Of a stretch of DNA of 64,000 nt, positions 11,068 through 57,042 are shown piece by piece. Position 1 is the first letter of the stretch. The number at the start of each line of letters is the position of its first letter. The stretch spans positions 76,754 to 140,753 of the forward strand of contig CAYFPL010000008.1 of assembly GCA_964344935.1 (NCBI GenBank), written 5' to 3'. The position numbers and the translations under genes are program-made. The stretch is from an uncultured Rhodospirillaceae bacterium (lineage in GTDB: Bacteria > Pseudomonadota > Alphaproteobacteria > GCA-2731375). The notes below the pieces were generated by a model. It made no database searches, was not told where the DNA came from, and saw nothing but the letters and a program-made list of their open reading frames with translations.

Positions 11068-11907
11068 ATGACGTACAAAATTACACCTCTCACCAACCAC
11101 ACCGGGGCCGAAGTCCGCGGCGTCGATCTATCAGGCCCAATCGACACAGTGACCCGAGAGGCACTCAACCGTTCGTTTCTTGACCATGCGGTCCTGGTGT
11201 TTCGCGACCAATCACTATCCGCGACCGAACTACTTGGCGCCGTGCAAAACTTCGGCGAAGTGTTCGAGCAGCACAACACCCGCTTTGCTCTGCCGGATTG
11301 TCCGCAAATCCACTACCTCTCGAACCAGGACCATTACGCCAACGGCAAACGCTATATTCCAGGTGCCGGCTATCACACCGATCATTCCAATGACCCTATG
11401 CCGCCCAAGGCAACTGTTTTGCTGGCTCTGCAATTGCCGGATCGAGGAGGCGATACCCAATTCGTCAACATGCACAAAGCATATGTGGAGCTGCCGGACC
11501 ACATGAAGACCCGGATCGACGGATTGAAATGCAAGCACGTCTATCAAAGCAGACACAGCGAACGGAAACTGATGGGCTTGACGCCGGAGCGGCAAGACGA
11601 GTTGGCAAAGGCTGTCATCCACCCTCTCGTCCGCACCCATCCAGAGACGGGTCGCAAATCCCTTTACCTCAATCCCATCCGTATCGAGGAAATCCCGGGA
11701 TTGGCGGAAGCCGATGCATTGGCCTTGCTCAACGAACTATTGGCGCATGGGACACAGGAAAAGTACCAATACCGCCACCAATGGCGGTTGGGGGATCTGG
11801 TGATGTGGGACAACCGTTGCCTGCTACACAAGGCCAACGGCGACTATGACCACGATCAAGTCCGCTATCTCTATCGGGTCATGCTCAAGGGAACCGCGCC
11901 TTATTGA
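11068..11907 (+). CDS. TauD/TfdA-family Fe(II)/2-oxoglutarate-dependent dioxygenase
   Basis: HTDHS forms the HxD facial-triad motif. The ~279-aa length and overall sequence match the taurine dioxygenase family. Confidence 0.8.
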   Translation: MTYKITPLTNHTGAEVRGVDLSGPIDTVTREALNRSFLDHAVLVFRDQSLSATELLGAVQNFGEVFEQHNTRFALPDCPQIHYLSNQDHYANGKRYIPGAGYHTDHSNDPMPPKATVLLALQLPDRGGDTQFVNMHKAYVELPDHMKTRIDGLKCKHVYQSRHSERKLMGLTPERQDELAKAVIHPLVRTHPETGRKSLYLNPIRIEEIPGLAEADALALLNELLAHGTQEKYQYRHQWRLGDLVMWDNRCLLHKANGDYDHDQVRYLYRVMLKGTAPY

Positions 11908-12047
11908 TTAGCCAATACAGGCGCAAAAAAATTGATGGGCTTCACACGCCGGCACCAATAAGATTGTGGGTGAAAGAAAATCTAGGGCACGGACTAGCCA
12001 TGCCAAACCCGGGCGAACTTGGTTAGACATGGCGAAAGGGAGAAACT

Positions 12048-13199
12048 ATGTCGCGAAAATCAATTCTGATCACATCGGTTTTGGCAGCGGCCGTTGTTGC
12101 GGCGCCTATGCAGATGGCAGGTGCAGTGGAACCGGTTAAACTGCGCTGGGCATCGGATCATAATGGACCGCCGCATCCAGCCGCCATCGCGGAAGTCTAC
12201 TTTGCTGAACAGGTGGAAAAGCGCATTCCCGGCAGCAAGGTACAGATTTTCTGGGCCAAGTCACTCTATACCGTGCCTCAGGGCACCAAAGCGTTGACCC
12301 AGGGCAACCTGGAGATCCTTACAGGCCAGTTCGGCAAGACCTCCAGTGTTGAACCTTTAGCCAATGTGTTGCTGGGCGCAGGCAAACTGTCCACCGTCGG
12401 GGCCATCGATGCGGTCGATCGCACCAAGACTTTCGCGGCCCTGGCTGATCATTTCAACAAAGCCCATGACATCACCATCATGGGGGCGGGACATTTGAGC
12501 ATGTATATGGGCGCAGGTGCGGTGAAGGGCCGGTTGATCGGACCGGCCGATTTCTCCGGCAAGAAGATGCGCTCCATGGGTCCGGCCGAGAACGCCCTGT
12601 TGAGCGCGCTCGGCGCCAATCCCCAGGCCATGGCTTTCGGCGACGTACCGCCGGCCCTGCAGACCGGCGTCATCGACGGCCTGCTTACCTCGCTAGGTGG
12701 TTTCAATGCCACCAAGGAGCAGGCCCCCTACTTCACCGTAGCTGGCCTCAACGGGATCGTCGGGGATTACTATTGGTTTGGCGTTTCGAACCGCTGGTGG
12801 AGCCGGCTGTCCAAGGAACAGCAGGACGTCCTGGCCGACATCATCAAGAACGATTTCATCCCGTTTCAGCGCGTCATCAACTATTGCAACGACCAGCGCA
12901 CCTTGGCCAGGTTCGTCACCACGGATAAGAGCGCACCGGGCATCTATGTCCTGAGCCAGGCAGAAGCCGCCATCATCAAGAAGGCCGAGGGCGGCGCCAC
13001 CAACGAATGGATCAAGACAAAGGTCAACGATGTCGGCGACAAACTGGTCGACCAATTCTCCATGGAAGCGGAAGCCTTGGTGAAGGCCAACCCGCCGGGT
13101 TCCCATGCCTTGGAGAAAACGGACTGCTCGAAGTACGAAAAGTATTTCGCCAAGTACGGCAAGGGGGGAGACCTGTACAAGGCGAAGAGCCGGAAATAG
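12048..13199 (+). CDS. TRAP transporter substrate-binding protein (DctP family)
   Basis: Signal peptide MSRKSILITSVLAAAVVAAPMQMAGA, and a ~380-aa DctP-like fold positioned immediately before the DctQ/DctM genes. Confidence 0.8.
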   Translation: MSRKSILITSVLAAAVVAAPMQMAGAVEPVKLRWASDHNGPPHPAAIAEVYFAEQVEKRIPGSKVQIFWAKSLYTVPQGTKALTQGNLEILTGQFGKTSSVEPLANVLLGAGKLSTVGAIDAVDRTKTFAALADHFNKAHDITIMGAGHLSMYMGAGAVKGRLIGPADFSGKKMRSMGPAENALLSALGANPQAMAFGDVPPALQTGVIDGLLTSLGGFNATKEQAPYFTVAGLNGIVGDYYWFGVSNRWWSRLSKEQQDVLADIIKNDFIPFQRVINYCNDQRTLARFVTTDKSAPGIYVLSQAEAAIIKKAEGGATNEWIKTKVNDVGDKLVDQFSMEAEALVKANPPGSHALEKTDCSKYEKYFAKYGKGGDLYKAKSRK

Positions 13200-13293
13200 C
13201 GATAGCCATGCACGTGGATGTCGAGGGGCCGCCGCATATCAGGCGGCCCCTGTTTTTTCCATTGTCCGTACATTTGGTTGATCCGGAGTAGAC

Positions 13294-13845
13294 ATGGACG
13301 CATTCCTTACTTTTTCGGAGCGTGCGAAACGCGTTATTCAAATGGCGCTCGGCTGGATCGGGGCGGCAATGCTGCTGGCCCTTACTCTGTTCGCCCTGCT
13401 CGAGATCGTTCGCCGCTATGTTTTTGGCGTGGTCTTTGAATGGGGCCAGGATGCGATCATCGTCGGCATGGTCTCCGCCGTTGCCTTCTACTTTTGCGTG
13501 ACGCAGGTCAACCGTGGCCACTTGGTGATGAATGCGATAGTACAATTGCTGCACGCACGCGGACTTTACAAAACCGTTGCCGTTTTCAAGATCATCGTCT
13601 CCGCTGTGATCGTCTTCTTCTGCGGCGCCGTGGGCATTACCGGCTGGCCCACCCTTAGCTATGCTTGGGGGCGGGACCTTACGACATACAGTCTGCTTAT
13701 TCCGTTGTGGCCGTTCTATCTGATCCTGATGCTCGGCTTCGTTTTGATGGCGTTTGTCGCTTTGCTGCAAATTATCGAAGACATCATCGAATTGGCGCGT
13801 GGAGAACATCTTGATGCGGAAATCCAATTGACGACGGACGTTTAG
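13294..13845 (+). CDS. TRAP transporter small permease (DctQ family)
   Basis: 183-aa hydrophobic protein with four predicted TM segments, lying between the DctP and DctM genes. Confidence 0.75.
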   Translation: MDAFLTFSERAKRVIQMALGWIGAAMLLALTLFALLEIVRRYVFGVVFEWGQDAIIVGMVSAVAFYFCVTQVNRGHLVMNAIVQLLHARGLYKTVAVFKIIVSAVIVFFCGAVGITGWPTLSYAWGRDLTTYSLLIPLWPFYLILMLGFVLMAFVALLQIIEDIIELARGEHLDAEIQLTTDV

Positions 13846-13877
13846 CCGCCGGCGGCTGGGATTATTGAGGCTTCGCG

Positions 13878-15161
13878 ATGCTGCCCCTTGCATTGATACT
13901 GTTCGGATTGCTGATCGTTGGCGTTCCCATCGGCATTTCCCTTGCGGGCTCCACCGCCGTTTTGGTCTTGTTCGATGACTTTCTGAGCTTCAGCACCCTG
14001 TTCGAAGCCTTTTTTATCTTCATCAGCAAATACACGCTGATCGCCATTCCGTTCTTCATCTATGCCGGTTTCCTGATGGAGAAAACCGGCCTTGTTCGTG
14101 GGCTGTTCAATCTCGCGGATGCTGTGATCGGTTGGGTGCCGGGCGGTTTCGCCTATGCGACCCTGATTGCCGCCGTATTGTTCGGCGCCATTTCCGGCTC
14201 CTCCACCGCTATGGCCGCAGCCATGAGCGTCATCGCCTACCCGGAGATGATCAAGCGCGGCTATCCAAAATGGATGGCGGCCGGCGTGATTGCCTCCGCC
14301 GGCGGCATCGCCTTGCTGATCCCGCCCAGCATCACGCTGATCCTGTTCGGGGTAATTACCGAGATTTCCATTGTTGATCTTTTCTTCGCCGGCGTCGTGC
14401 CAGGCATCATGCTGGCGATCAGCGATGCGGTGATCATCGTTTCCGTATCGATCTTCATCGTCAAACTGCCCGCTGGCACGTTCGAGCCGCGCAAATGCTG
14501 GAGCGCTTTCAAGGAAGCGTTACCGGCCTTGCTGATGCCGGTGCTGGTCCTGGGCGGCCTTTATGGCGGTCTGTTCACGCCCACCGAGGCCGGTGCAGCG
14601 GCAGCCTGTTATGCCCTGGGTTATGGCATCATTTTCAAGCGTGGACCCTTCATTAGGGAATTGATGGGGGTGACCCGCCGGGCGATGAACCTGACAGCCG
14701 TTGTGTTCTTTCTCCTCGGCTGTGTTGGCATATTCCAGTTCTTCCTGGCCAACATGGGCTGGCCGCAGGAAATCGCCGCCTGGGCCGGCAACCTGGGCCT
14801 GACCAAATACACTTTCCTATTTGCCCTGATGGCCACACTGCTGTTGCTGTCTATGTGGCTGACAGGCGTGGCCATTCTTGTGCTTACCGTGCCGGTCTAT
14901 TTTCCCGTGGCGCTTTCGTTGGGCGTGGACCCGGTACATCTGGGGATTTTGACCGCACTGTGCATCGAAATTGGCAGCGTCATTCCACCGGTCGGTTTGA
15001 ACCTGTTCGCCGTCAGTGGCGTAACCGGCCTGCCGGTGACACAAGTCATACGCGGCTCGTTCCCGTTCTGCATTTCAGACACCGTTGTGCTGATCATCGT
15101 GCTTTTGTTCCCCATGCTGGCGCTCTGGCTGCCAAGCATGCTGATCACATCCCACTTCTGA
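13878..15161 (+). CDS. TRAP transporter large permease (DctM family)
   Basis: 427-aa polytopic membrane protein. MLPLALILFGLLIVGVPIGISLAG is a typical DctM N-terminus. Confidence 0.85.
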   Translation: MLPLALILFGLLIVGVPIGISLAGSTAVLVLFDDFLSFSTLFEAFFIFISKYTLIAIPFFIYAGFLMEKTGLVRGLFNLADAVIGWVPGGFAYATLIAAVLFGAISGSSTAMAAAMSVIAYPEMIKRGYPKWMAAGVIASAGGIALLIPPSITLILFGVITEISIVDLFFAGVVPGIMLAISDAVIIVSVSIFIVKLPAGTFEPRKCWSAFKEALPALLMPVLVLGGLYGGLFTPTEAGAAAACYALGYGIIFKRGPFIRELMGVTRRAMNLTAVVFFLLGCVGIFQFFLANMGWPQEIAAWAGNLGLTKYTFLFALMATLLLLSMWLTGVAILVLTVPVYFPVALSLGVDPVHLGILTALCIEIGSVIPPVGLNLFAVSGVTGLPVTQVIRGSFPFCISDTVVLIIVLLFPMLALWLPSMLITSHF

Positions 15162-15278
15162 TAAAGGCCGGCGAATTGGCAGTTTTGCTGGGAGCAATCG
15201 CGCCTCTAATGGGTTATGCCCGCGTGAAAAATGATGCCCATGACCATAGCCGGCGTACCGCCCCGGCATTGGCGGCGC

Positions 15279-17233
15279 TTACGGCGACATCGCCGGCGAC
15301 CAATCCGCAAGCGGCGTTATCTTGACTGTATCCGGCGGCGTGGATGCGCCGGGCTCCAGGACGACCACGATGCGGCGAGATTCGCCATTCGCGACCCCAT
15401 CAACATTGATGACGATCTTTTTGATGCCTTCATTCGGTCGCTCGGGCGGGGGTCTTTGCGCCGAGCGTATTTCGAACCTCGCGCCGGCGGGTGAGACGAT
15501 ACGGGCCCCCAGGGACCGGCCATCCTGGCGCAGAACGAGTGTTCCGGGGGCCTGTGGGTTCAGCATTGGCCGTGCACGCGTATGCATCCCCCAGGTAACG
15601 GGTGCGGGCCTTTGTCCGGAAATCTCATCCTGGATCAGGAAGCGGCGCCCTTGCAATAACGCCAGCCCGCGACGGATGCCGCCCGGCGCAGCGCCATAAG
15701 CCGGCCCCAAATCGGCGACGGCGAAACTTAGCCGGGGTGATTGATGGAATGACATCAACGGGGCCTCGGCATCCAGGGCCTGATCTTCATCACCGAAAGT
15801 AAGCGTATTCTGTCCGGTGGTGGTAGTCCGGTAATAATCCCACCTTTTACGCCCGAAATAGCCGGGCAGAAGATAGTTGCCGGGTCCCAGATCCATCGCC
15901 CACCGCACACCCATGCCATCGAGGACGAAACTGCCAAGATCGAGATGGGTATGATGGCCGTGGTTATTGCCGCCCTTGAGAGCCGCAAACAATGCTTTCT
16001 TGTCGTTCCAGGCCGATCGGAAAGCCGCGACATGAATGGCCCCAAACTGCCGGCCTAATGGAAGTCCTAATAAGCTAGGGCCCTTGCCAGCATCGTACCG
16101 GCGCCAAAGAAGATCGAATGCCAATCGCGATCCAGGCGAGGCAGCACTGTCCAACCATGTATCGATTGCGCGATCGAAACGGCTGCCGAGCCATGCCAGG
16201 GCGACGCGGTTTGGCTTCACTTCGCTGTCTCCGAAATTGAAGGCGAGGCCCGTTGGACCGGTCAGATGCAGCAGAAAATCACCGGTCGTCTGAAATCCAG
16301 GCGTGTTCGAGAAATCGAACGACGGACCCATGATAGCTGGTACGGCATCGTGGTAGAGCGCAGCATATCGGCTGGCATAGGACCAATAGCCTGGCCCTTC
16401 GGCAAACCCGCCGTCAGGCTCATATTCCGCCATGCCGTGTTTGATGGATTGCCTCACCTCACCTAGCAGCCGGTTCGACAATTCCGGCTTGTGATTGCGT
16501 ATGACGAGACCGGCGAGCGCGAGGCCACTGTTGCAAACGATATTCCAGTTGAAGGTCTCGACCGGCCAGCCATGATCGGCGCGTTCCGCGGCGGATACTT
16601 CATGGACACGGCGAACATCGGGACGGATCCAGGATGATCCCTTTGCCGGGGCGCCGGCGCTATCATACAAGGCCAGGCCAGGCAGAATGGCTTTTTCCAC
16701 CAATGCCTCGACCAAAATGCTTACGTCGGCCTCGCTCAATCTCGGCGCCAGCCAGCTCATACCGATCGAAACCGCCGCAGCCATTTCCGCCGTATCCAGG
16801 AAATGCGCGGGGTTCCAATGTTTGAACGCCGCGACGGCCAACAATTCCGCGCGGCCGCGGGCGGCATAGCGCTCATCTTGCCAAAGCCTCCAGGCAAGTC
16901 CCAGCACCGAGGCTCGCTTCAGCATTTTGCGCGAGGTCTTCAACATCAGGGCTGGTTTGCCGTGATAGGTCACCTCGAACGTGTGTGCCATAAGAGGTTT
17001 TTTCAGAAGCGACTCGGCCTTGTGGCGTAGCTCGTCAAGGCGACGGGCTGCATTGGTGTCCGATTTGGCGGTATTCACCAATTCCACCAAACGATCCGGC
17101 GTAAGCATGATTTGCGGCAAGGCCTGCGCTGCTGCTGGTGTGCAAATGTCGATCTGAAACGCGAACAGGGCGCACGTGGCTGCGATGAGGCCAAGCCTCG
17201 ACGTCCAACAGAAAAAAGGGGGCCGCTTCATCA
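15279..17233 (-). CDS. Heparinase II/III-family protein (polysaccharide lyase-like), secreted
   Basis: GGNNHGHHTHLDLGSFVLDGMGVRWAMDLG is the Hepar_II_III C-terminal signature. The N-terminal signal peptide is MKRPPFFCWTSRLGLIAATCALFA. The track ORF starts at 17366; the likely start is MMKRPP. Confidence 0.75.
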
Positions 17234-17365
17234 TGCAATGCTCCCGTTTATAGGCGCCGGGAACGTTATCATACCTTTGCCCCATGCCGCCAAAACCGGC
17301 GGAAACGGTGCTACTGCCATTTGTCAAAACCCAGAAAGCCCGATACCCTCCCATTTGCAGCCGCA

Positions 17366-20300
17366 ATGTCGCTGGGGGCCGTATTGCATCGACTCGCCCG
17401 GTTTATTCTCGCAATTTTGGTTTCCGGCCCAGCCGTCCTCTTGCTGGATCCAGGTTTTGCATTGGCCGATGCCTGCACCTACCCAACCAAACAACCCAAA
17501 CCGCTACTGCCGGCCGATCCAGAGTTATGCAGGACCTTTGACCCAGTTGTCCGCAATCCTTCCGGCCTGCCGCAGAGAGCCTACCAATTAAAGCTGCAGG
17601 TTTACCTTGACGGCTTTTGCCATCGTGACAAGAAAGCGGGCTGGGTGCGCGACAAGTTCGTGCGCGACACGGGCCCGAGCACTGCACAGCTGTCGCAAGG
17701 AATCTGGCAAAACAGTTACCACGGTACCCATGCTCCAGTGGTGATCTGGTATTCGCCCGAGATGTATACGTGGATGAAGCAGAACCGGACCGCATCGGAC
17801 GAAGACAAGAAGTCCGACACGTCTGCGGTGCCCGATGGTGCCATCATGGTGAAGGAAATGTATCCCGCGCCCGGTTCCGTTTGCCGGGAGGTGACGCCGG
17901 AGTACTTGCTGCCGATCACTCAGGGTGCCGCGATCATGGTCCGCGACGCCAAGGCGAGCCACGATGGCTGGTACTGGGGCTGGTTCGGATGGAGCGGTTG
18001 GCAGCCCGATTACCCGGCCGAAAAGCCGAAGGCGCTTACTAATATGGGATTTGCCCAGTATTGCTTGAACTGCCATTCCTCGGCCCGCGGCAACCAAACG
18101 TTCGCAGCTTTGAAAAATATCGAGAACGAGCCGGGCCGCCCACTGGTGTATTTGAGCGCGCATGAGAATCCGGTCCCGGGCGCGGCCGGTAAGCATCGTG
18201 AAAAAACTTCGTCAAGCACTGGCCCGCCGCGGCGAACAGTCGGTCTCGATGCCTACAACCCGGCATTTCAGGCTGCATTCAAATTGAAGGACGGCGCCCC
18301 CGCGCCAAGCGAGGCAACCGTATCCAAAATGCCGCCGCAAAATTATGACCACACATTCGTTTCGGCCGGCGGCCCGACCATCCACGACGAATATCTGACG
18401 TCGAGTCAGTGCCTCGGCTGCCACGACGCCGGCAGTACTGGGTTGAGCTTTGAAATGGCGATTCCGGTCGCACCGGACGATCCCGCCGCGCGCGGGGACC
18501 AAATGTGGAATCACTCACCCTATGCGACGTGGCGGACCTCGCCCATGGGTCTCGCCGGTCGCGATCCCATATTCTTTTCCCAACTGGCCAGCGAGACCCA
18601 GAGTTTTCATCCCGGTATTTCCAAGGTTGTGGAGAACACCTGTCTTGGCTGTCATGGCATCCTGGGGCAACGGCAGTTCGCCATCGACCATTTTGCCAAG
18701 AGCGGGCCCGATGCCGGTTCTGTCGAAGAGAGATGCGGTGCCTTTACCCGCGAAAAGCTCGATTCCGTGCCTTGGCCGGAGCATAAATCCGCCAATCCAC
18801 GCCTAGCAGACGCCAAACACGGTGCCCTGGCCCGCGACGGTATTTCATGCCTCTCCTGCCATCGCATGGTGCTCGGCGAGGCGGCATCAGCACGGGCGGC
18901 CGCTCAGGAACAGAATGACTGCGTTATCGCACGGCAGGAGTTTCTCAACCCGGGTCTGCAAGGCTTCGCCAAGACATTCACCGGCTCATTCCTGGTTGAT
19001 GGTCCCACGAACATATATGGCCCCTTCAAGGAACCTAAAGCCACTCCTATGCGGGATGCCTTGGGGAATACGCCGGCCCATTCATCGACCATCTCCATGT
19101 CGCAGACCTGCGGCACCTGTCACACGGTGCATTTGCCGGTATTTCACAAGGGCAAACAGATCGGCCATGTTTACGAGCAGTTGACCTTCCCCGAATGGGC
19201 TTTCAGCGCCTATAGAACCGGGATTTCGCCTGACGGCCCATTACCCGAAGGCGCCGGTCAGCGCGCCAAAAGCTGCCAGGATTGCCATATGCCGTCAGTC
19301 GATCCTGACGGCTCGCCGACCCGTTCACGCATCGCTTCTATTCAGGAATATTCGAATTTCCCCCAGGCCGAATTCACCCGTGCGCCGGACGAGATCGACC
19401 TGCCCATCCGGGAGGGATTTTCACGTCACACCCTGGTGGGATTGAATATCTTCCTGACCAAGATGGCGCAGCAGTTTCCGGATGTGCTGGGTATTGGCAC
19501 TCAGGACCCGATGATGGGCAAGCGTGGGATCGATCCATTGATCTACACCGAACGAAAGATGCTGGATCAGGCCGCCAACGCGACCGTAAAAATCTCAGTT
19601 CCGTCGGTTAGGGTCGACAACGACAAGGGCACGCTCAACGCCGATGTGCGGGTCGTCAATCATGTCGGCCACAAGTTTCCTTCCGGCGTCGGCTTTCGCC
19701 GTGCTTTCATCTCATTCGAAGTCATGGACCAAGGTGGTGAGGTCATCTGGTCATCTGGCGGAACCGATGGCGTGGGCCGAATTGTCGGCGACGACGGCAA
19801 ACCGCTAGCGGGCGAGATGTGGTGGACAGCGGATTGCGCCAAGCGACTTGAACCGAACAAACGCATTCACCAACCGCATTACCAGACGATTTCGCGCCAG
19901 GATCAGGTGCAAATCTATCAGGAACTGGTTAGCGCGCCGGCGGACATCGGAAGCCCGCAATGCGGCCACGGCGCCCCCCCACAGGGAGCGTTGACCACTT
20001 CATTCCTGTCCATATGTGCTGAAGTCAAAGACAATCGGCTTTTGCCTCATGGATACTTGCCGCTTGAAAAGCGGATCGCGATTGCACGTGCGCTTGGGGC
20101 GAAGGCGGACATGGCGGAAGATTCCGGCCCCACGGCGGTTGGCAATGATCCCGACTACGCCGACGGAAAAGGCGGCGGCGATACGTTGAACTATGCCATC
20201 CCCCTATCGGACCTAAAGGGTGAACCGGCGCAAGTGCGCGCCCGTATGTGGTATCAGGCGACGCCGCCGTTCTATTTGCAGGACCGGTTCTGCACGGCCC

Positions 20301-20419
20301 GTGGCAACGACACAAGCCGCCTTTACTATCTCGCCGGCCATCTGAACCTGGACAATTCCCCAGCGGATAACTGGAAACTGCTCGTCGGTGATACGGGACC
20401 GCGCGAGATCCAGCCGTGA
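17366..20419 (+). CDS. Large secreted hexaheme c-type cytochrome of unknown function
   Basis: Six CXXCH motifs: CLNCH, CLGCH, CLGCH, CLSCH, CGTCH, CQDCH. The signal peptide MSLGAVLHRLARFILAILVSGPAVLLLDPGFALA precedes them. The final ~380 aa carry no haem motif. Confidence 0.7.
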   Translation: MSLGAVLHRLARFILAILVSGPAVLLLDPGFALADACTYPTKQPKPLLPADPELCRTFDPVVRNPSGLPQRAYQLKLQVYLDGFCHRDKKAGWVRDKFVRDTGPSTAQLSQGIWQNSYHGTHAPVVIWYSPEMYTWMKQNRTASDEDKKSDTSAVPDGAIMVKEMYPAPGSVCREVTPEYLLPITQGAAIMVRDAKASHDGWYWGWFGWSGWQPDYPAEKPKALTNMGFAQYCLNCHSSARGNQTFAALKNIENEPGRPLVYLSAHENPVPGAAGKHREKTSSSTGPPRRTVGLDAYNPAFQAAFKLKDGAPAPSEATVSKMPPQNYDHTFVSAGGPTIHDEYLTSSQCLGCHDAGSTGLSFEMAIPVAPDDPAARGDQMWNHSPYATWRTSPMGLAGRDPIFFSQLASETQSFHPGISKVVENTCLGCHGILGQRQFAIDHFAKSGPDAGSVEERCGAFTREKLDSVPWPEHKSANPRLADAKHGALARDGISCLSCHRMVLGEAASARAAAQEQNDCVIARQEFLNPGLQGFAKTFTGSFLVDGPTNIYGPFKEPKATPMRDALGNTPAHSSTISMSQTCGTCHTVHLPVFHKGKQIGHVYEQLTFPEWAFSAYRTGISPDGPLPEGAGQRAKSCQDCHMPSVDPDGSPTRSRIASIQEYSNFPQAEFTRAPDEIDLPIREGFSRHTLVGLNIFLTKMAQQFPDVLGIGTQDPMMGKRGIDPLIYTERKMLDQAANATVKISVPSVRVDNDKGTLNADVRVVNHVGHKFPSGVGFRRAFISFEVMDQGGEVIWSSGGTDGVGRIVGDDGKPLAGEMWWTADCAKRLEPNKRIHQPHYQTISRQDQVQIYQELVSAPADIGSPQCGHGAPPQGALTTSFLSICAEVKDNRLLPHGYLPLEKRIAIARALGAKADMAEDSGPTAVGNDPDYADGKGGGDTLNYAIPLSDLKGEPAQVRARMWYQATPPFYLQDRFCTARGNDTSRLYYLAGHLNLDNSPADNWKLLVGDTGPREIQP

Positions 20420-20599
20420 CCCGATCGTTGCAACTGTAAATTTTCACGCCGGTTTTCGCTCGGATTTTGGTGGCGCTGGTAACTGGGGGCACGCACACTA
20501 TTATGTCGGCGTCGCTATGAGACGATTTCGTCGTCTTGAATTATTCTGGTTTATCAATCGTTCGGCGAATGCAAACTACAGAAACTGGAGGTCCGTGCG

Positions 20600-20842
20600 G
20601 TGTCTAGAACCTTCTTTGCTGCACTTCACAAGATTACCGAAAATCCGCTCGTGAATATCTTTGTTGGACTAATATTCGCGACAACGGGAGTGCTTGAAAT
20701 TATTGACGGTTTTCAGTCCGAGATGAAATCGAACGCAATCGGTGTGCATCATGGGGCTGTTCTGTTCGGCACAGTACATATCTTGAAAAGTCTGCCCGAA
20801 TTTTTCGAGGGCGCGAAATATTTCGAGAAATCAGAGGACTGA
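20600..20842 (+). CDS. Small hypothetical membrane protein in an AT-rich patch
   Basis: 80-aa ORF with a GTG start preceded by GGAGG. One or two predicted TM helices (LVNIFVGLIFATTGVL, AVLFGTVHIL). Local GC is visibly below the flanking sequence. Confidence 0.4.
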   Translation: MSRTFFAALHKITENPLVNIFVGLIFATTGVLEIIDGFQSEMKSNAIGVHHGAVLFGTVHILKSLPEFFEGAKYFEKSED

Positions 20843-27749: not shown

Positions 27750-27933
27750 ATGAAGTTCGAGCAAACGGAACGGCAAACGATTTGTCGGATGCCTCGCTCT
27801 CCGATGAATATTTTTTGTGTCTGCATTAAACACGAATAGATAGACTATCGTCTCAAGGCCAATTCCAACTCATTATGTGGACGGTGGATTGGTCGCCTAC
27901 TCTTGTATCTGTAGCCGTAGATTGGCGTGGGGT

Positions 27934-29580
27934 ATGAGAAAACATTTCTGTTGTGGGCTATTCGCTGCGATCATGTTGGTTGCCCCGCCATCGGGAAGCC
28001 TACACGCCGCCGCACCAGTTCAGTCAGCCGTTACACTTGAGACATTGGCAGATCGCATAGCGCGACTGAAAGGGCTGTCCAACCCAAATATTGGTCTCGC
28101 TGAATCTCAAGTAATTCAATGGGCAACCTACCGTTGGACGCGCCGGCTGCTGGAGCGCGAACGCTATACCCATCCCGATATCGTCTTGTATTGGGTCAGG
28201 CGCAGCCGGGTGGCACGTTTTGCCTCTGACACCAATAAATTGGTTGAAAAGCTGCGGCCGGGCTCCGACTTCGCCGCTCATCTCAAACAGGCCACCGACA
28301 AGTACCGTGAGATGGAAAAAATGGCGGAAGTGACCCGCTACCACTCGGATATCAATCACGCCGATAAAACGAGACTTCTGAAAACTTTCAAAGACCCTCG
28401 GCACCGTCGGCTGGTACAGGGGTTGGTGCAGTCGTTGCTGGATGATCTAGGGGAACTTGACCCGGAAACCAACGATAGCTGGCGGCCGTTCTATGAATAT
28501 CTCCATGGGGATATCTTCGACCATGAGCATTGGGCAGAGGGCGAACTCAATAAGGATCTCAAGGTCCAAAAGGACATGGCACAGGTCTTTCTCGATGGAT
28601 TGTATGAAGAGGGACGGCTGGATGTAGTGTCGAAGCATGAAGTCTCTGCGCTTATGAGGTTCGATGCAGAGGAGGCCAGCTACCTGGGCGCGTTGTTCAT
28701 GACCGGACTGGGGCCGCAGGACACACCGCGAAAGGCGTTGGCTTCTGCGTATCTGGACTATGTCATGGCATTTGATTCCTGGCTGACGGACATGATTACC
28801 CGGCCCAATGTTATTCAGTCCGACCGTCATCTTGATGATTTGTGCACGGTTTTTCCTTGCCAGATAAGTCTGCGCCGCCGCGCCGCCTGGCTTCGACACG
28901 GCTATCAGATATTGGCGGTTGACCTGCTGTCGACCCTTCCCGACCGCATCATCGACGGTCAGGCGTTCTCTCGTCGATTGAACGACGAGGAACAGGAACA
29001 GATGCGCCATACCCGCGAACGCCTAAAGGAATTTGCGGAAGATTGGCGGCGAAACGGAAAGTTGGCGAGCCCACTGTTTGCTGTTGTCCTGCCCGGTCCA
29101 AACGACACCATCGATTGGCAATGGGGCGGCTGGTTGGCCTGGGAATGGGTAACGGACAAGGAGGTCAAGGACTGGCGCAGAACGGGACGCGTGGTGGACG
29201 CGTTTGATATGGTCTGGCTGCTGCCGGCCGACGCCGTGGGGCGAGTCCCCGATCGTTTCGAGGCATTGCTGGAAATGGGAGCCAAACAGGTCATTTTGGC
29301 GTTGTCGCCCTGGATTCTCGATATGAAGGCAGCACTTGAATGGCCGTCTGGGCCTCTGCTGGAACTGCACAGGCGCGGCTATTTCCTGGGTATTGAAAGG
29401 TCTGGATGCTACGACGATCCCATGTTGTGCTGGATTGATTATGATCCCAATAAAGGCGACCTCGGCGCGGTGTCCAGACGGGTGTGCGATATCTATCGCA
29501 ATCACGGATATCGAAAATTCACAGTTAGTTTTGCGCCCGGATGGGGCAAACCCGCGCAACAATTGACCTGCGCGGATTGA
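27934..29580 (+). CDS. Secreted hypothetical protein, operon gene 1
   Basis: Signal peptide MRKHFCCGLFAAIMLVAPPSGSLHAAAP. The ~549-aa protein has no recognisable domain. It is preceded by an AT-rich promoter-like region. The track ORF starts at 27877. Confidence 0.55.
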   Translation: MRKHFCCGLFAAIMLVAPPSGSLHAAAPVQSAVTLETLADRIARLKGLSNPNIGLAESQVIQWATYRWTRRLLERERYTHPDIVLYWVRRSRVARFASDTNKLVEKLRPGSDFAAHLKQATDKYREMEKMAEVTRYHSDINHADKTRLLKTFKDPRHRRLVQGLVQSLLDDLGELDPETNDSWRPFYEYLHGDIFDHEHWAEGELNKDLKVQKDMAQVFLDGLYEEGRLDVVSKHEVSALMRFDAEEASYLGALFMTGLGPQDTPRKALASAYLDYVMAFDSWLTDMITRPNVIQSDRHLDDLCTVFPCQISLRRRAAWLRHGYQILAVDLLSTLPDRIIDGQAFSRRLNDEEQEQMRHTRERLKEFAEDWRRNGKLASPLFAVVLPGPNDTIDWQWGGWLAWEWVTDKEVKDWRRTGRVVDAFDMVWLLPADAVGRVPDRFEALLEMGAKQVILALSPWILDMKAALEWPSGPLLELHRRGYFLGIERSGCYDDPMLCWIDYDPNKGDLGAVSRRVCDIYRNHGYRKFTVSFAPGWGKPAQQLTCAD

Positions 29581-47757: not shown

Positions 47758-49347
47758 CTAGACCTTCGCCGGTTCAGTGCCCGGCCGCCGACTGACAACC
47801 CTACCTTTCGGAATCCGCAACAGGGTTGCCGGCACCATGGCGATGAAATAGGTGGCGCCGAGGAACAGGAACACATCCCGGAAAGCTAACATATTAGCCT
47901 GGGCATAGAGACTGGTGCCCAGCATCTGCAATGCCGCCAGGGGGTGCAGTTCCGTCGGCCAACCGAGCTGTGACAGAAGGCTCGACATGCCTTGCATCAG
48001 ATCCTGTGTCAGGATGTTGTCAGGGGTTTGTGACCCCGCCAGAGCCTCGGAAAAGACCGCGGTGCGGTGTTCCAGCGCAACGGCGATCATATTGACGCCC
48101 ATGGCGCCGCCCAATTGGCGCATGAAATTGACGGCGCCGGAGCCTTGGCTGACCAATTCGCTCGGCAGACTATGTAGAGCGGTGGCATTAATGGTCGGGA
48201 TGACAAAGGCCAGTCCGATACGGCCGATCACCAGCCACAGCGCAAAGGTCCAGAACGGTGTGTCCGTATGTGCCCCGGTCATCAGCATCGCCGAGAAGGC
48301 GAATGCACAGAGGCCGCCCAGGATCAGCCAGTGCCGCGGCAACCGGTCTGCCAGGCGGCCGCCAATGGGCATCAGCATCATCATGGTCAATCCCGCCGGT
48401 ACCATCAATAATCCGGAGCGCGTCGGGCTATAACTTTGCACGGTCTGAACGAACAATGGGATCAGATAGGTGGTGCCGTACAGGCCCGCGCCCAGGGCCA
48501 TACGCACAACTGCCGCCGCCGCGAATTGCTTGTTGAGGAACAGGCGCAGCTGCAGAATTGGTTCCGACGTACGCCATTCCCACCACAAAAAGGCCACGAA
48601 CGAGAGGACAAAAGTAGAGAAATAAACAGCAACGATGGGCGCATGCCAGCCTTCCCGCTGTCCCGAAGACAGGGCAATCAATATTGAGAAGACAAAGACC
48701 ACCAGCAATGAAAGCCCAGTCCAGTCAAAGGCCGGCTTGGCCTCCTTGGTGGTGCGCCATGGCATGAACAGCCAGGCCAGAAGGCTGCCCAGGGCCGCCA
48801 CGGGGATTGAGGCGAAAAAGACGTAGTGCCAGTTGAAGGCATCCAGCAGAACGCCGCCGAAGAAGGGTCCCAAGGTCGGCGCCACCACGACACCGACCCC
48901 GAATAGACCCATGGCCTTGCCCCGTTGGTGAATGGGAAAAACCTGGAACATCAGGACCATGGAGAGCGGCTGTACCAGCCCGGCGCCCAGACCCTGCAGC
49001 ACCCGGCCGGTAGTCATGATGTCGATATTCGGCGCCAGCCCGCCCATGAAGGCGCCGATGGCAAAGATCACCATGGCGCCCAGGTAGGTGGCGCGCATGC
49101 CGAAGGATCGAACGAACCAATCGTTCAGCAGCATGGCCACGGTCATGGAAGCGATATAGCCTGTGGCCAGCCAATGCGCCGTATCCTGACCGACGCCAAA
49201 GGCGCCCATGATCACAGGAATAGCCACGTTGATCATGGTGGCGTTCAGCAGCATGGAAACGATACCTAGGACCACCGTGAAGGTCACGAAGGCCCGATAT
49301 TTCGCGCCGTACCGTTCGAAAAGGATCTTGACCGCGGCTTCCGGCAT
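47758..49347 (-). CDS. MFS DHA2 (EmrB/QacA-type, 14-TMS) efflux permease, tandem paralog 1
   Basis: 529 aa. INVAIPVIMGAFGVGQD...LLNDWFVRSFGMR...LLDAFNWHYVFF blocks are shared with the next two genes. It starts 4 nt after the paralog 2 stop. Confidence 0.85.
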   Translation of the reverse strand: MPEAAVKILFERYGAKYRAFVTFTVVLGIVSMLLNATMINVAIPVIMGAFGVGQDTAHWLATGYIASMTVAMLLNDWFVRSFGMRATYLGAMVIFAIGAFMGGLAPNIDIMTTGRVLQGLGAGLVQPLSMVLMFQVFPIHQRGKAMGLFGVGVVVAPTLGPFFGGVLLDAFNWHYVFFASIPVAALGSLLAWLFMPWRTTKEAKPAFDWTGLSLLVVFVFSILIALSSGQREGWHAPIVAVYFSTFVLSFVAFLWWEWRTSEPILQLRLFLNKQFAAAAVVRMALGAGLYGTTYLIPLFVQTVQSYSPTRSGLLMVPAGLTMMMLMPIGGRLADRLPRHWLILGGLCAFAFSAMLMTGAHTDTPFWTFALWLVIGRIGLAFVIPTINATALHSLPSELVSQGSGAVNFMRQLGGAMGVNMIAVALEHRTAVFSEALAGSQTPDNILTQDLMQGMSSLLSQLGWPTELHPLAALQMLGTSLYAQANMLAFRDVFLFLGATYFIAMVPATLLRIPKGRVVSRRPGTEPAKV

Positions 49348-49351
49348 ATAG

Positions 49352-50938
49352 CTATCCCGGCCTTGGCCGCAGGTTGGCCGGTATCTTGGAGGTTGTCGGT
49401 CTATCCCGCAGCAGTAATGCCGGGATCATGGTGGCGAAATAAACCACGGCAACAAGCAGGAAGACATCGCCATAGGCCATCATCGATGCCTGGGAATAGA
49501 CGCTGCGGCCGACAAGGTAGAGGGCACCCGCCGGCGTCATTTCAAACGGCCAGCCTAACTGACCTAGCAAATGGCCGAGCTGGGTCATGATCTGGAGGGT
49601 TGCCGCATTGTCGGGCGTCTGCAGTCCGGCAAAGGCATCTGAGAAGAATGCGGTGCGCCTTTCCAAGGTCAATGCCAGCAGATTGACGCCGATGGCGCCC
49701 CCCAAATTCCGTGAGAAGTTCAAGGCGCCCGAGCCTTGGCTCAACAGTTCTGGTTTCAATGTGGATACAGCACTGACCGTCAAGCTAGGCATCATGGCCG
49801 CGAGGCCAATCCGGCCCACACAGATCCAGGCAGCAAAAACCCAGAACGGCGTGTCCGTGTGGGCCTGCATCATCAACAGCGAGGAAAAGCCGAACATGAA
49901 GAGGCCGAACAGGATCATCTGATAGCGGGGCAATTTATCGCTGAGGCGGCCGGCGATGGGGAACATTGCCATCATCAGCAAACCGCCCGGAATCATCAAC
50001 AATCCCGACCGCGTCGGGCTATAGCTTTGCACCGTCTGCACGAACAGCGGAATGACGTATGTGGAACCATAAAGACCGACGCTCAACACCATGCTGACGA
50101 AGACCGAGGCGGCGAACTTTTTGTTCCAGAAAACCCGCAACTGCAGAATCGGCGATTCAATCGACAATTCCCAGATGATGAAGGCGACGAGGGAAATGAT
50201 AGCGACCGAGAAATAGACCGAGATGATGGGCGCCCCCCAGCCGTCCCGCTGTCCATTGGACATGCCGGTCAGGAACATGCCGATGAATAACGCGACCAGG
50301 ATCAGTCCGGTCCAATCGAAGGTGGGAAGCGGTTCCTTTCGGCCTTTGCCGGGCATGAAAACGATGGCCAGCAACACGCCAACGACCGCCACCGGGGCCG
50401 ACATGAAGAACACGTAATGCCAGTTGAAGGCATCCAGCAGCACGCCACCGAATGTCGGCCCCAGGGCGGGTGCCACGATGATGCCGACACCGAACAGACC
50501 CATGGCTTTGCCGCGCTGGTCAACGGGAAAGACCTGGAACATCAAGATCATGGACAGGGGTTGAACGATCCCGGCGCCGGTACCCTGTAGCACGCGAGAG
50601 AGGATCATGATGTCGATGGTCGGGCTTAGTCCACCCATGATAGCGCCGAAGATGAAGATCGACATGGCGCCGATATAGGTCGCCTTCATGCCGAAAGCGC
50701 GGACAAACCAATCATTCAGCAGCATGGAGACGGTCATGGCCGCAATGAAGCCGGTGGACAGCCAATGCACCTTGTCCTGGCCGACGCCAAAGGCGCCCAT
50801 GATCACCGGAATGGCCACATTGATCATAGTCGCTGTCAGCACCATGGCCATGGTGCCCAGCATGGCGGTAAACGAGACGAAATAGCGATAGCGCGGGCCG
50901 TAGCGCGCGAACATCGCATCTATGGCCGGATTGCCCAT
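49352..50938 (-). CDS. MFS DHA2 (EmrB-type) efflux permease, tandem paralog 2
   Basis: 528 aa, collinear with paralogs 1 and 3 along the full length (~80% aa identity by eye). Confidence 0.85.
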   Translation of the reverse strand: MGNPAIDAMFARYGPRYRYFVSFTAMLGTMAMVLTATMINVAIPVIMGAFGVGQDKVHWLSTGFIAAMTVSMLLNDWFVRAFGMKATYIGAMSIFIFGAIMGGLSPTIDIMILSRVLQGTGAGIVQPLSMILMFQVFPVDQRGKAMGLFGVGIIVAPALGPTFGGVLLDAFNWHYVFFMSAPVAVVGVLLAIVFMPGKGRKEPLPTFDWTGLILVALFIGMFLTGMSNGQRDGWGAPIISVYFSVAIISLVAFIIWELSIESPILQLRVFWNKKFAASVFVSMVLSVGLYGSTYVIPLFVQTVQSYSPTRSGLLMIPGGLLMMAMFPIAGRLSDKLPRYQMILFGLFMFGFSSLLMMQAHTDTPFWVFAAWICVGRIGLAAMMPSLTVSAVSTLKPELLSQGSGALNFSRNLGGAIGVNLLALTLERRTAFFSDAFAGLQTPDNAATLQIMTQLGHLLGQLGWPFEMTPAGALYLVGRSVYSQASMMAYGDVFLLVAVVYFATMIPALLLRDRPTTSKIPANLRPRPG

Positions 50939-50939
50939 C

Positions 50940-52529
50940 TCAGCCCGTCCTTGCCGCTAGAACCGGCCGTGCCTTGGGCCGCGGCTTCCAATCCCGCAGC
51001 AACAGCGCCGGGATGGCAGCAATGAAGAAGGCGACTGCGACAAATAGGAAGAGGTCGCGGAACGCCATCATGGATGCCTGGGAATAGACGCTTTGGCCGA
51101 CCAGGTACAATACGCCGGTCCGGGCCATTTCGAACGGCCAGCCCAATTGGCTCAGCAAATGCCCGATCTCGAGCATGAATTGCTGGGTAGCGCTATTGTC
51201 CGGTGTTTGCAGGCCGGCAAACGCATCGGAAAAGAACGCAGTGCGCTGTTCCAGGGTGACAGCAATGATGTTGATGCCAACCGCACCGCCTAGGTTCCGC
51301 ATAAAGTTGAGTGCACCGGCGCCTTGGCTCAAATGGTCCGGTTTCAGGGTGGACACGGCCGTCACCATCATGGTCGGCATCATGGCCGCCTGCCCTAACC
51401 GCCCCAGCATCAGCCACATGGCGAAAACCCAAAAGGCCGTGTCGGTACCCGCCTGCATCATCAAGAGACAGGAAAACCCGTAAACAAAAAGGCCGAACAA
51501 GGTCATCTGATAGCCGGGCAGCTTGTCGGCCAGACGGCCGGCAATGGGCAGCATCAGCATCATGAAAATACCACCCGGAACCATCAACAGGCCGGAGCGC
51601 GTGGGGCTGTATCCCTGGATGGTCTGCACGAACAGGGGCACCAGGTAAGAGGTGCCGTAAAAGCCGAGACTCAGCACCAGCCCAACAATAATGGAAGCGG
51701 CGAACTTCCGGTTCGCGAACACCCGTACTTGCAGAATCGGATTGGCGGAGACCAACTCCCACCAAATGAAGGAAATACCCGACACCAGGCCGATCGAGAA
51801 CAACACGGAAATTATTGGCGAGCCCCAACCTTCCCTTTGGCCGCTGGACAACCCGGTCAATGAACAGATGATGCACAAGGACACCAGCACCAGGCCGGTC
51901 CAGTCGAAATCGGGCAGACGCCGTTCACCGCGCTCCCCACCGGGCATGAATATGGTCGCGAGGAAGATACCCAGGGCCGGCACCGGAACCGACATAAAGA
52001 AGACGTACTGCCAATTGAAGGCGTCCAGCAGAACGCCGCCCACGGTGGGGCCAACAGCCGGCGCAGCCATAATACCGACACTTAACAGACCCATGGCCCG
52101 GCCCCGTTGGTCGACGGGAAAGACTTGCAGGATCAACACCATAGCCAGGGGCTGGGCGACGCCGGCGCCGACGCCCTGCAGCGTCCGGGCCAGGATCACC
52201 AGGTCGATGGTATTGGACAGCCCGCCCATGACGCCGCCGAATATGAAGATGGCCATGGCGCCGATATATGTGGTGCGCATGCCGAAGGAACGCACGCACC
52301 AGTCATTCAGCAGCATCGAGACAGTCATGGCGGCGATGAAGCCGGTAGAGACCCAATGCACCTTGTCCTGGCCGACACCGAAGGTGCCCATAATCACGGG
52401 AATGGCCACGTTGGTCATGGTCGCCGTCAGGGCCATGGCCATGGTGCCAAGCATGGCCGTGAAGCTTACATAGTAGCGATAGCGCGGCCCAAACCGCGCG
52501 AACATCGCGTCAATCGCGGCTGATTGCAA
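50940..52529 (-). CDS. MFS DHA2 (EmrB-type) efflux permease, tandem paralog 3
   Basis: 529 aa. Its start overlaps the HlyD gene end by 20 nt. Confidence 0.85.
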   Translation of the reverse strand: MQSAAIDAMFARFGPRYRYYVSFTAMLGTMAMALTATMTNVAIPVIMGTFGVGQDKVHWVSTGFIAAMTVSMLLNDWCVRSFGMRTTYIGAMAIFIFGGVMGGLSNTIDLVILARTLQGVGAGVAQPLAMVLILQVFPVDQRGRAMGLLSVGIMAAPAVGPTVGGVLLDAFNWQYVFFMSVPVPALGIFLATIFMPGGERGERRLPDFDWTGLVLVSLCIICSLTGLSSGQREGWGSPIISVLFSIGLVSGISFIWWELVSANPILQVRVFANRKFAASIIVGLVLSLGFYGTSYLVPLFVQTIQGYSPTRSGLLMVPGGIFMMLMLPIAGRLADKLPGYQMTLFGLFVYGFSCLLMMQAGTDTAFWVFAMWLMLGRLGQAAMMPTMMVTAVSTLKPDHLSQGAGALNFMRNLGGAVGINIIAVTLEQRTAFFSDAFAGLQTPDNSATQQFMLEIGHLLSQLGWPFEMARTGVLYLVGQSVYSQASMMAFRDLFLFVAVAFFIAAIPALLLRDWKPRPKARPVLAARTG

Positions 52530-56977: not shown

Positions 56978-57042
56978 TCAGGGTGCTGCAAGGGCGGCGT
57001 CTGAAGCCTTTCTTAACCATATGCCGCGAAGCTTTGCCGATC

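What the first reader, a model, noticed from the sequence alone, without database searches (positions are those of the whole stretch)
17366..20419. 1032-aa secreted hexaheme c-type cytochrome with a long haem-free C-terminal domain
Six CXXCH motifs are spread over ~400 residues (CLNCH, CLGCH x2, CLSCH, CGTCH, CQDCH). They sit behind a signal peptide and are followed by ~380 residues with no haem motif. This is low haem density for a multihaem cytochrome. I cannot assign it to the NrfA, HAO, MtrA or MccA families from sequence. It is transcribed divergently from a secreted heparinase II/III-family protein from a shared ~130-bp region, an unusual pairing of a redox enzyme with a polysaccharide-lyase-like protein.
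Basis: partly seen in the sequence, partly recalled or inferred. Interest (0 to 1): 0.7.

Follow-up and report, generated by a model that had tools for sequence, protein, structure and literature searches.

The report
Cytochrome P460 fused to pentahaem wire
The gene encodes a secreted six-haem protein that joins a cytochrome P460-type catalytic haem domain to a five-haem module; it belongs to a large, widespread and unstudied family, and its heparinase-like neighbour is a local coincidence.

Summary
CDS 17366-20419 (+) has six CXXCH motifs, against 0.015 expected by chance, and a signal peptide. It encodes 1017 aa; 1032 aa applies only from an upstream TTG.

At least 683 clusters at 50% identity match the family profile at E<1e-30, and 372 species genomes hold a relative. 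All 108 full-length representatives among the 150 listed share the six-haem layout. I found no paper on this family.

The gene stands alone. The heparinase-like neighbour is absent from all 81 related loci, and no other neighbour is conserved.

Best reading: a periplasmic P460-type oxidoreductase with a built-in electron wire, similar in logic to hydroxylamine oxidoreductase. The substrate is unknown, and the carboxylate that known P460s need to oxidise hydroxylamine is missing at the aligned position.

Verdict: a new variant of a known kind, of moderate to high interest.

The parts
17366..20419 (+). Complete CDS of the 1017-aa hexahaem protein (ATG start, stop codon included).
   Evidence: ORF list. 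An identical 1017-aa protein, P0001, is on record. Translation checked.
17366..17467 (+). Predicted Sec signal peptide, residues 1-34, with an A-L-A|D cleavage site.
   Evidence: Read from the sequence. Relatives also begin with hydrophobic leaders. No signal-peptide predictor was available.
17507..18151 (+). Cytochrome P460-fold domain, residues about 48-262. It carries haem 1 (CLNCH, 18062-18076). The Pfam hit itself covers only residues 140-243.
17852..17854 (+). Codon of Lys163 (AAG), the candidate haem-crosslinking lysine in the motif PDGAIMVK.
   Evidence: Aligns with Lys78 of M. capsulatus P460. Lys78 is the crosslinking residue according to PMC6427953. Cytochrome c'-beta has Phe at this position. 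K is kept in 108 of 109 divergent relatives.
18152..18355 (+). Variable linker, residues 263-330, poorly conserved and modelled with low confidence.
   Evidence: pLDDT is below 50 over residues 261-293. The alignment columns are variable and gapped.
18356..19540 (+). Five-haem, mainly helical 'cap', residues 331-725. Haems 2-6 lie at 18410-18424, 18641-18655, 18848-18862, 19109-19123 and 19274-19288.
19541..20416 (+). Haem-free C-terminal domain, residues 726-1017. It is an enlarged Ig-like beta-sandwich 'stem' of the pentahaem c552 fold and carries the invariant motif GH(K/R)FPSGVGFRR (H769, R778, R779).
17235..17365 (.). 131-bp divergent spacer between the cytochrome gene and the heparinase-like gene.
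   Evidence: Coordinates. No sigma-70 consensus match. No FNR-type box.
15279..17234 (-). Neighbouring heparinase II/III-like gene (651 aa, with a signal-peptide-like N-terminus). It is not part of the cytochrome system.
   Evidence: Hepar_II_III_C E 9.4e-11. Absent from all 81 related loci.
20518..20538 (+). Terminator-like hairpin about 100 nt after the stop codon.
   Evidence: Consensus scan. Only 5 such sites were found against 4.6 expected, so this is weak evidence.

Best explanation
Shown. The gene encodes a Sec-exported, roughly 108-kDa protein built from two known folds. The first is an N-terminal cytochrome P460 domain. Its single haem (haem 1) lies next to an almost invariant lysine at the position of the haem-crosslinking Lys of characterised P460 enzymes. 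The second is a complete copy of the 'cap plus stem' fold of the Thermochromatium tepidum pentahaem cytochrome c552. It carries haems 2-6 and an enlarged haem-free Ig-like domain. The gene is monocistronic and has no conserved partner.

Inferred. The Lys-crosslinked P460 haem is the five-coordinate catalytic site, where a small reduced substrate is oxidised. The most likely substrates are nitrogen species such as hydroxylamine or NO. The electrons leave through the five c-haems, at least two of which probably have His/Met ligation and so a high potential. They would pass to a generic periplasmic acceptor such as a soluble cytochrome c. The logic is that of hydroxylamine oxidoreductase (a crosslinked P460 haem plus a haem wire in one polypeptide), reached with unrelated folds.

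In these non-nitrifying heterotrophs, phototrophs and Acidobacteriota the likely role is scavenging or detoxifying such compounds, not energy-conserving nitrification.

My confidence in the architecture is about 0.9. It is about 0.5 for 'oxidoreductase with the P460 haem as active site', and about 0.25-0.3 for hydroxylamine as the substrate.

For: Crosslinking lysine: K163 aligns with Lys78 of McP460 in three independent alignments and is kept in 108 of 109 relatives at 35-57% identity. The gas-binding cytochrome c'-beta paralogue has Phe at that position (PMC6427953).

Literature: Lys mutants of N. europaea P460 are inactive (PMC6427953). Crosslinked P460 haems mark oxidative rather than reductive enzymes (PMC6457333; PMC12758564).

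His/Met ligation: M394 and M562 are 98-100% conserved in P-M contexts. Class-I cytochrome c Pfam models hit at haems 2 and 3.

Fixed architecture: all 108 full-length representatives have the P460 domain, five-haem module and C-terminal domain with exactly six CXXCH. The apparent five-haem forms are fragments without start codons.

Stand-alone gene: no neighbour is conserved in 82 close loci or 5 distant ones. This fits an enzyme that carries its own wire.
Against: The second-sphere carboxylate that N. europaea P460 needs to oxidise NH2OH (Glu97; Asp102 in McP460) aligns with A189, which is T, A or S across the family. This resembles Nitrosomonas sp. AL212 P460, which binds NH2OH and NO but does not turn them over (PMC6457333).

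The Lys-haem bond is a post-translational modification and cannot be seen in sequence.

No nitrogen-cycle gene, regulator motif or redox partner is linked to the gene.

The hosts are not nitrifiers.

The haem-binding regions of the full-length model have low confidence (pLDDT 69.9).

In MccSep, a relative of the c552 fold, the catalytic site lies inside the pentahaem module (bioRxiv 10.1101/2025.11.18.688581).
Confidence: 0.5

Rival explanations
1. The catalytic site lies in the c552-like pentahaem module, at the cap-stem interface as in the polysulfide reductase MccSep. The P460 domain would then be an accessory, for example a haem that binds NO or another ligand, an electron entry or exit point, or a regulatory module.
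For: The c552-like module is complete and is the best-conserved part of the protein. The stem motif GH(K/R)FPSGVGFRR, with invariant H769, R778 and R779, is shared with 5ze8. In MccSep a stem residue reaches the active-site haem 2. The P460 pocket lacks the carboxylate at the aligned position.
Against: No non-haem Cys is conserved across the family, so MccSep's mechanism (a His/Cys-ligated haem plus Sec or Cys) is excluded. There are seven well-conserved His or Met candidates for five sixth-ligand positions, so no open haem is evident in the module. The near-absolute conservation of K163 is hard to explain for a domain that only binds gas, because c'-beta proteins use Phe there.
Confidence: 0.2
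2. The protein is a reductase. Electrons enter through the pentahaem chain and reduce NO, nitrite, hydroxylamine or another oxidant at the P460-domain haem.
For: Some hosts are denitrifiers, judging by names such as Nisaea denitrificans and N. nitritireducens. The multihaem relatives NrfA and MccSep are reductases. T. tepidum c552 is a low-potential protein by its depositors' description.
Against: Haem crosslinks of the P460 type are associated with oxidative chemistry, and HAO-family members lacking the crosslink are the reductive ones (PMC6457333; PMC12758564). The conserved Met ligands suggest high-potential haems. No FNR/NnrR-type box was found upstream: 1 of 81 loci against 3 of 410 control windows.
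Confidence: 0.15
3. The protein is a non-catalytic periplasmic electron carrier or conduit.
For: It has six haems, no conserved partner and generic multihaem Pfam hits. The function of its closest structural relative, 5ze8, is unknown.
Against: The invariant P460-type lysine and a conserved polar set (D96, R100, H122, Y129) in the P460 domain point to a reactive site. No porin or extracellular electron-transfer genes lie nearby. One haem per 170 residues is low for a wire.
Confidence: 0.1
4. One reading: the cytochrome works together with the divergently transcribed heparinase II/III-like protein.
For: The two genes share a 131-bp divergent spacer, and both products have export signals.
Against: A tblastn search with the heparinase-like protein found no match in any of 81 related loci (E<=1e-5). 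No neighbour is conserved in close or distant relatives. The heparinase-like gene abuts a TauD and TRAP-transporter cluster.
Confidence: 0.02

Closest known systems
Cytochrome P460 (CytL; N. europaea 2JE3, Nitrosomonas sp. AL212 6AMG, M. capsulatus 6HIU)
   Same: Same beta-sheet fold, with one CXXCH at the end of the domain and a lysine at the crosslink position in the motif PDGA(I/V)(L/M)VK. Both are periplasmic.
   Different: Known P460s are monohaem homodimers of about 17-20 kDa. Here the domain is the N-terminus of a 1017-aa hexahaem protein. The Glu/Asp second-sphere base is replaced by Ala, Thr or Ser at the aligned position. Sequence identity is only about 21%.
Thermochromatium tepidum low-potential pentahaem cytochrome c552 (PDB 5ZE8)
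   Different: 5ZE8 is 435 aa with no P460 domain, whereas the matching module here is about 690 aa with large insertions. Sequence similarity is barely detectable outside the stem. The conserved Met residues suggest His/Met haems here. The function of 5ZE8 is itself unknown.
MccSep (Geobacter polysulfide reductase) and PtdA, both of the pentahaem-plus-beta-sandwich class
   Same: Their authors compare both with 5ZE8. PtdA is described as its homologue and MccSep as a structural relative with the same cap-and-stem layout. Both are periplasmic.
   Different: MccSep needs a haem-ligating Cys and a Sec/Cys, and no non-haem Cys is conserved here. PtdA lies in a porin-cytochrome operon, whereas this gene stands alone.
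Hydroxylamine oxidoreductase (HAO/HDH octahaem family)
   Same: Same functional logic: a crosslinked P460-type catalytic haem joined to a chain of c-haems within one polypeptide.
   Different: The fold is unrelated. HAO has eight haems and a Tyr crosslink between the subunits of a trimer, and it has dedicated partners. No HAO model was hit here.

Membership tests
Cytochrome P460 family (PF16694) | P460/c'-beta beta-sheet fold with a single C-terminal CXXCH. | tested here: met
Cytochrome P460 family (PF16694) | A lysine at the haem-crosslink position, which separates P460 from cytochrome c'-beta. | tested here: met
   K163 aligns with Lys78 of McP460. c'-beta has Phe there. K is kept in 108 of 109 relatives.
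Cytochrome P460 family (PF16694) | A covalent Lys-haem meso-carbon bond with the 460-nm ferrous Soret band. | not testable with these tools
   This is a post-translational modification. It needs spectroscopy or mass spectrometry.
Cytochrome P460 family (PF16694) | A second-sphere carboxylate (Glu97 in NeP460, Asp102 in McP460) required for NH2OH oxidation. | tested here: not met
   Asp102 aligns with A189, which is T in 52, A in 39 and S in 8 of 109 relatives. The requirement is taken from PMC6457333. The alignment is at low identity, so another residue (E164, D96, D200 or H122) could still serve as the base.
Cytochrome P460 family (PF16694) | A small monohaem homodimeric protein. | tested here: not met
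   The domain is fused into a 1017-aa hexahaem protein.
T. tepidum pentahaem c552 (5ZE8) / MccSep / PtdA fold class | Five CXXCH haems in a helical cap. | tested here: met
T. tepidum pentahaem c552 (5ZE8) / MccSep / PtdA fold class | A C-terminal Ig-like beta-sandwich stem. | tested here: met
MccSep polysulfide reductases | A haem-ligating Cys and a catalytic Sec/Cys in the stem. | tested here: not met
   No non-haem Cys is conserved across 109 relatives; the best is 76% at C55, which lies in the N-terminal domain. There is no in-frame TGA, as the ORF is uninterrupted.
NrfA pentahaem nitrite reductase | A CXXCK active-site haem and a full-length match to PF02335. | tested here: not met
   No CXXCK motif. 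Cytochrom_C552 scores E 0.74, 9.1 bits against a cut-off of 24.1.
HAO / octahaem, MtrA / decahaem and MccA families | Eight or ten haems and a match to the family profile. | tested here: not met
   Only six haems. OmcA/MtrC TIGR03507 scores E 0.23, and no HAO or MccA model was reported. MccA's CX15CH motif was not searched for specifically.
   Found in 0 of 81 loci.

The most novel reading that the evidence does not exclude
This family is a convergent, single-polypeptide counterpart of hydroxylamine oxidoreductase in non-nitrifying bacteria. A Lys-crosslinked P460 haem would oxidise hydroxylamine, NO or a related reduced nitrogen compound and pass the electrons through its own five-haem wire into the respiratory chain. 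That would make it an overlooked periplasmic enzyme of heterotrophic nitrification or nitrogen-oxide turnover. It could also be a source of N2O, NO or nitrite in soils and seawater, encoded in hundreds of species of Alphaproteobacteria, Gammaproteobacteria and Acidobacteriota.
Probability: 0.28. Interest if true: 0.85.

Novelty: new variant of a known kind. Interest (0 to 1): 0.62.

Why it matters
Cytochrome P460 is so far known only as a small monohaem enzyme that links hydroxylamine to N2O and NO in nitrifiers and methanotrophs. The role of the many P460 genes outside nitrifiers is an open question, raised by the P460 field itself (PMC6457333).

This family shows that the P460 cofactor domain has been grafted onto a complete pentahaem module. 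Both folds differ from HAO, yet the result has HAO's design. The family is large: at least 683 clusters at 50% identity match at E<1e-30, and 372 of about 185,000 species genomes hold a relative. It is found in heterotrophs, phototrophs and Acidobacteriota.

If it is active on nitrogen oxides, it bears on heterotrophic nitrification and on N2O budgets. Whatever its substrate, it also suggests a functional setting, a catalytic haem plus a wire, for the c552-type pentahaem fold whose founding member has no known function. The protein stands alone and is soluble, so it can be tested directly by expression and spectroscopy.

Tried and rejected
- Synteny with the heparinase-like gene, TRAP transporter, DUF502, Sel1 and SDR neighbours: none is conserved next to the cytochrome.
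- De novo clustering of all ORFs within 7 kb in 82 loci: the best families were generic. An ABC ATPase appeared in 15 loci, a DMT/EamA transporter in 11, LysR in 9 and GST in 7.
- Contexts of five distant representatives: no shared neighbour.
- FNR/NnrR-type box upstream: 1 of 81 loci against 3 of 410 control windows.
- Sigma-70 consensus in the spacer: none found.
- A split-gene ('Rosetta stone') origin: the apparent five-haem and N-terminal-only representatives are fragments without start codons or signal peptides.
- A MccSep-like Cys/Sec mechanism: rejected.
- NrfA, HAO, Mtr and MccA membership: rejected.
- Literature searches for a P460-multihaem fusion: nothing found. The library is limited, and the T. 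tepidum c552 paper is not held.
- Source organism: not recoverable. The closest relatives are Nisaea spp., at 65-67% identity.
Full report
**Observation.** The + strand holds one long ORF ending at 20419. From the ATG at 17366 it encodes 1017 aa. An identical 1017-aa protein is on record from NCBI (P0001), so I use the ATG start and 1017-aa numbering.

Six CXXCH motifs lie at residues 233, 349, 426, 495, 582 and 637 (nt 18062, 18410, 18641, 18848, 19109, 19274). No CXXCK, CX3CH or CX4CH variants occur. Shuffling the protein gives 0.015 motifs on average and never more than two in 20,000 trials. All six motifs are invariant in 109 divergent relatives.

The N-terminus reads as a Sec signal peptide with an A-L-A|D cleavage site. 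That is my reading of the sequence; no predictor was run. 376 residues follow the last motif.

The upstream gene on the - strand (15279-17234; its real start is the ATG at 17234) matches Hepar_II_III_C, E 9.4e-11. It is separated from the cytochrome gene by a 131-bp divergent spacer.

**What the N-terminal third is.** The first CXXCH is not part of a generic multihaem stretch. Residues 140-243 match Pfam Cytochrome_P460 above the gathering score (35.6 bits against 27). The only solved structures found by sequence are cytochromes P460 of Methylococcus capsulatus (9hrk and 6hiu).

Three independent alignments place K163 (PDGAIMVK) on Lys78 of McP460 (PDGAILVK). Lys78 forms the defining Lys-haem crosslink. 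Its replacement by Phe defines the gas-binding paralogue c'-beta, and Lys mutants of the N. europaea enzyme are inactive (PMC6427953). The same profile aligns c'-beta with PDGAVLVF.

Across 108 full-length representatives of 50%-identity clusters (35-57% identical to the window protein), K163 is kept in all but one sequence (108 of 109 including the window protein).

The second-sphere carboxylate does not carry over. N. europaea P460 needs it for hydroxylamine oxidation (Glu97), and it is Ala131 in the inactive AL212 enzyme (PMC6457333). It corresponds to Asp102 in McP460. Asp102 aligns here with A189, a position that is T, A or S in the family.

Other polar residues of the domain are 97-100% conserved: D96, R100, H122 and Y129. 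They could line the pocket.

**What the rest is.** A profile of the family finds PDB 5ZE8, the pentahaem low-potential cytochrome c552 of Thermochromatium tepidum (E 5.8e-6). The match is chiefly through the motif GHKFPSGVGFRRA against PHAMPTGAPFRN.

Three fold searches single out 5ZE8:
- Foldseek with the full model finds it alone at E<=0.001: E 7.6e-9, probability 1.0.

The C-terminal domain has no Pfam match at E<=10. Its separate model is confident, with pLDDT 93.3 and pTM 0.90.

The 'long haem-free C-terminal domain' is therefore an enlarged Ig-like stem of the c552 fold, and haems 2-6 are its five-haem cap. By their authors' accounts, two proteins resemble 5ZE8:
- PtdA, described as its homologue; function unknown; it lies in a porin-cytochrome operon (bioRxiv 10.1101/2023.11.21.568154).
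- MccSep, compared with it structurally; a polysulfide reductase whose active site is a His/Cys-ligated haem 2 plus a selenocysteine from the stem (bioRxiv 10.1101/2025.11.18.688581).

No non-haem cysteine is conserved in the present family, so the MccSep chemistry is excluded.

Residues conserved at 94-100% that could serve as sixth ligands are H122, H688, H769, M364, M394, M562 and M642. M394 and M562 sit in P-M contexts, and class-I cytochrome c Pfam models hit at haems 2 and 3. From this I infer some His/Met, high-potential haems. That inference is not shown.

**Family and context.** The word-indexed search returned 1747 proteins at E<=1e-5. The best 120 are 946-1058 aa long and 54-69% identical to the window protein over at least 95% of its length. 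All are unnamed or called 'hypothetical' or 'Cytochrome P460 domain-containing'.

The exhaustive profile search found 2738 clusters at 50% identity at E<=1e-3 and 683 at E<=1e-30. Among the 150 listed, every full-length protein has the same domain order and exactly six CXXCH motifs. The shorter ones are fragments without start codons.

Among one genome per species, 372 encode a relative:
- Closest: Nisaea, at 65-67% identity.
- Many Rhodospirillales and Hyphomicrobiales, including Caenispirillum, Inquilinus, Thalassospira, Mesorhizobium, Bosea, Devosia and Labrys.
- Purple sulfur Gammaproteobacteria (Thiorhodococcus).
- Acidobacteriota (Thermoanaerobaculia and Holophagales).

None is a canonical nitrifier.

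The heparinase-like gene is next to the cytochrome in 0 of 81 loci. Clustering all flanking ORFs from 82 loci found nothing in more than 15 loci, and only generic families. Five distant representatives share no neighbour either.

No FNR-type box is enriched upstream. The window itself has no nitrogen-cycle genes nearby. The heparinase-like gene abuts a TauD, DctP and DctM cluster.

**Mechanism.** The architecture is shown: a P460 domain with the crosslink lysine, fused to a complete pentahaem cap-and-stem module and exported.

The mechanism is inferred. The P460 haem is the open, crosslinked catalytic site. The other five haems carry electrons between it and a generic periplasmic partner. I favour the oxidative direction for two reasons:
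- Haem-protein crosslinks of the P460 type distinguish oxidative from reductive members in both the P460 and HAO families (PMC6457333; PMC12758564).
- The conserved methionines suggest high-potential haems.

This design matches hydroxylamine oxidoreductase but is built from unrelated folds.

The substrate is open. Hydroxylamine or NO is the obvious candidate, but the missing carboxylate at the aligned position argues for caution. The P460 field has itself proposed classes of P460 tuned to other substrates.

The rivals are a catalytic site inside the c552-like module, a reductive enzyme, and a plain electron carrier. None is excluded. A functional link to the heparinase-like gene is effectively excluded.

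**Novelty.** I found no paper describing a P460-multihaem fusion in the searchable library. The phylogenetic survey in PMC6427953 treats P460 as a small stand-alone protein. Databases already flag the P460 domain automatically, and both folds are known. I therefore rate this as a new variant of a known kind, not a new category.

**Limits.** There is no experimental evidence. The haem regions of the full-length model have low confidence (pLDDT 69.9). No model coordinates were available, so haem order, ligand assignment and pocket residues are untested. The AFDB fold library was unavailable. The source organism was not identified.

Noticed in passing
window 47758-53763 (-): Three tandem paralogous MFS_1 transporter genes (529, 528 and 529 aa; 57-71% pairwise identity) lie next to a HlyD-type membrane-fusion gene (52510-53763) on the same strand. 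The region has an unusually strong AT skew of 0.22-0.26.
   Followed up: partly
window 20600-20842 (+): An 80-aa ORF with a hydrophobic segment lies in a 48% GC spacer just downstream of the cytochrome gene. It has no counterpart in 81 related loci.
   Followed up: partly
window 11068-17234: A TauD-family dioxygenase gene and TRAP transporter genes (DctP, DctM) lie on the + strand, followed by the convergent heparinase II/III-like gene. This is a plausible uptake and degradation cluster to which the heparinase-like gene belongs, rather than to the cytochrome.
   Followed up: partly
related loci L002-L081, directly upstream of the cytochrome gene: A DMT/EamA-like transporter lies immediately upstream in 11 of 82 loci. 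LysR-type regulators occur nearby in at least 9 loci, and GST-like genes in 7. The associations are weak and may be chance.
   Followed up: no
window 56983-59679 (+): An 898-aa protein with a TPR array and a Glyco_transf_41 domain, resembling an O-GlcNAc transferase.
   Followed up: no
window 27877-29580 (+): A 567-aa ORF with no Pfam match at E<=0.001.
   Followed up: no
L082 5177-7847; L085 1191-5726; L086 6777-7793: In distant relatives, the genes just upstream on the same strand encode large proteins with no Pfam family (727 plus 161 aa, 1511 aa, and 338 aa). They are unrelated to one another.
   Followed up: partly
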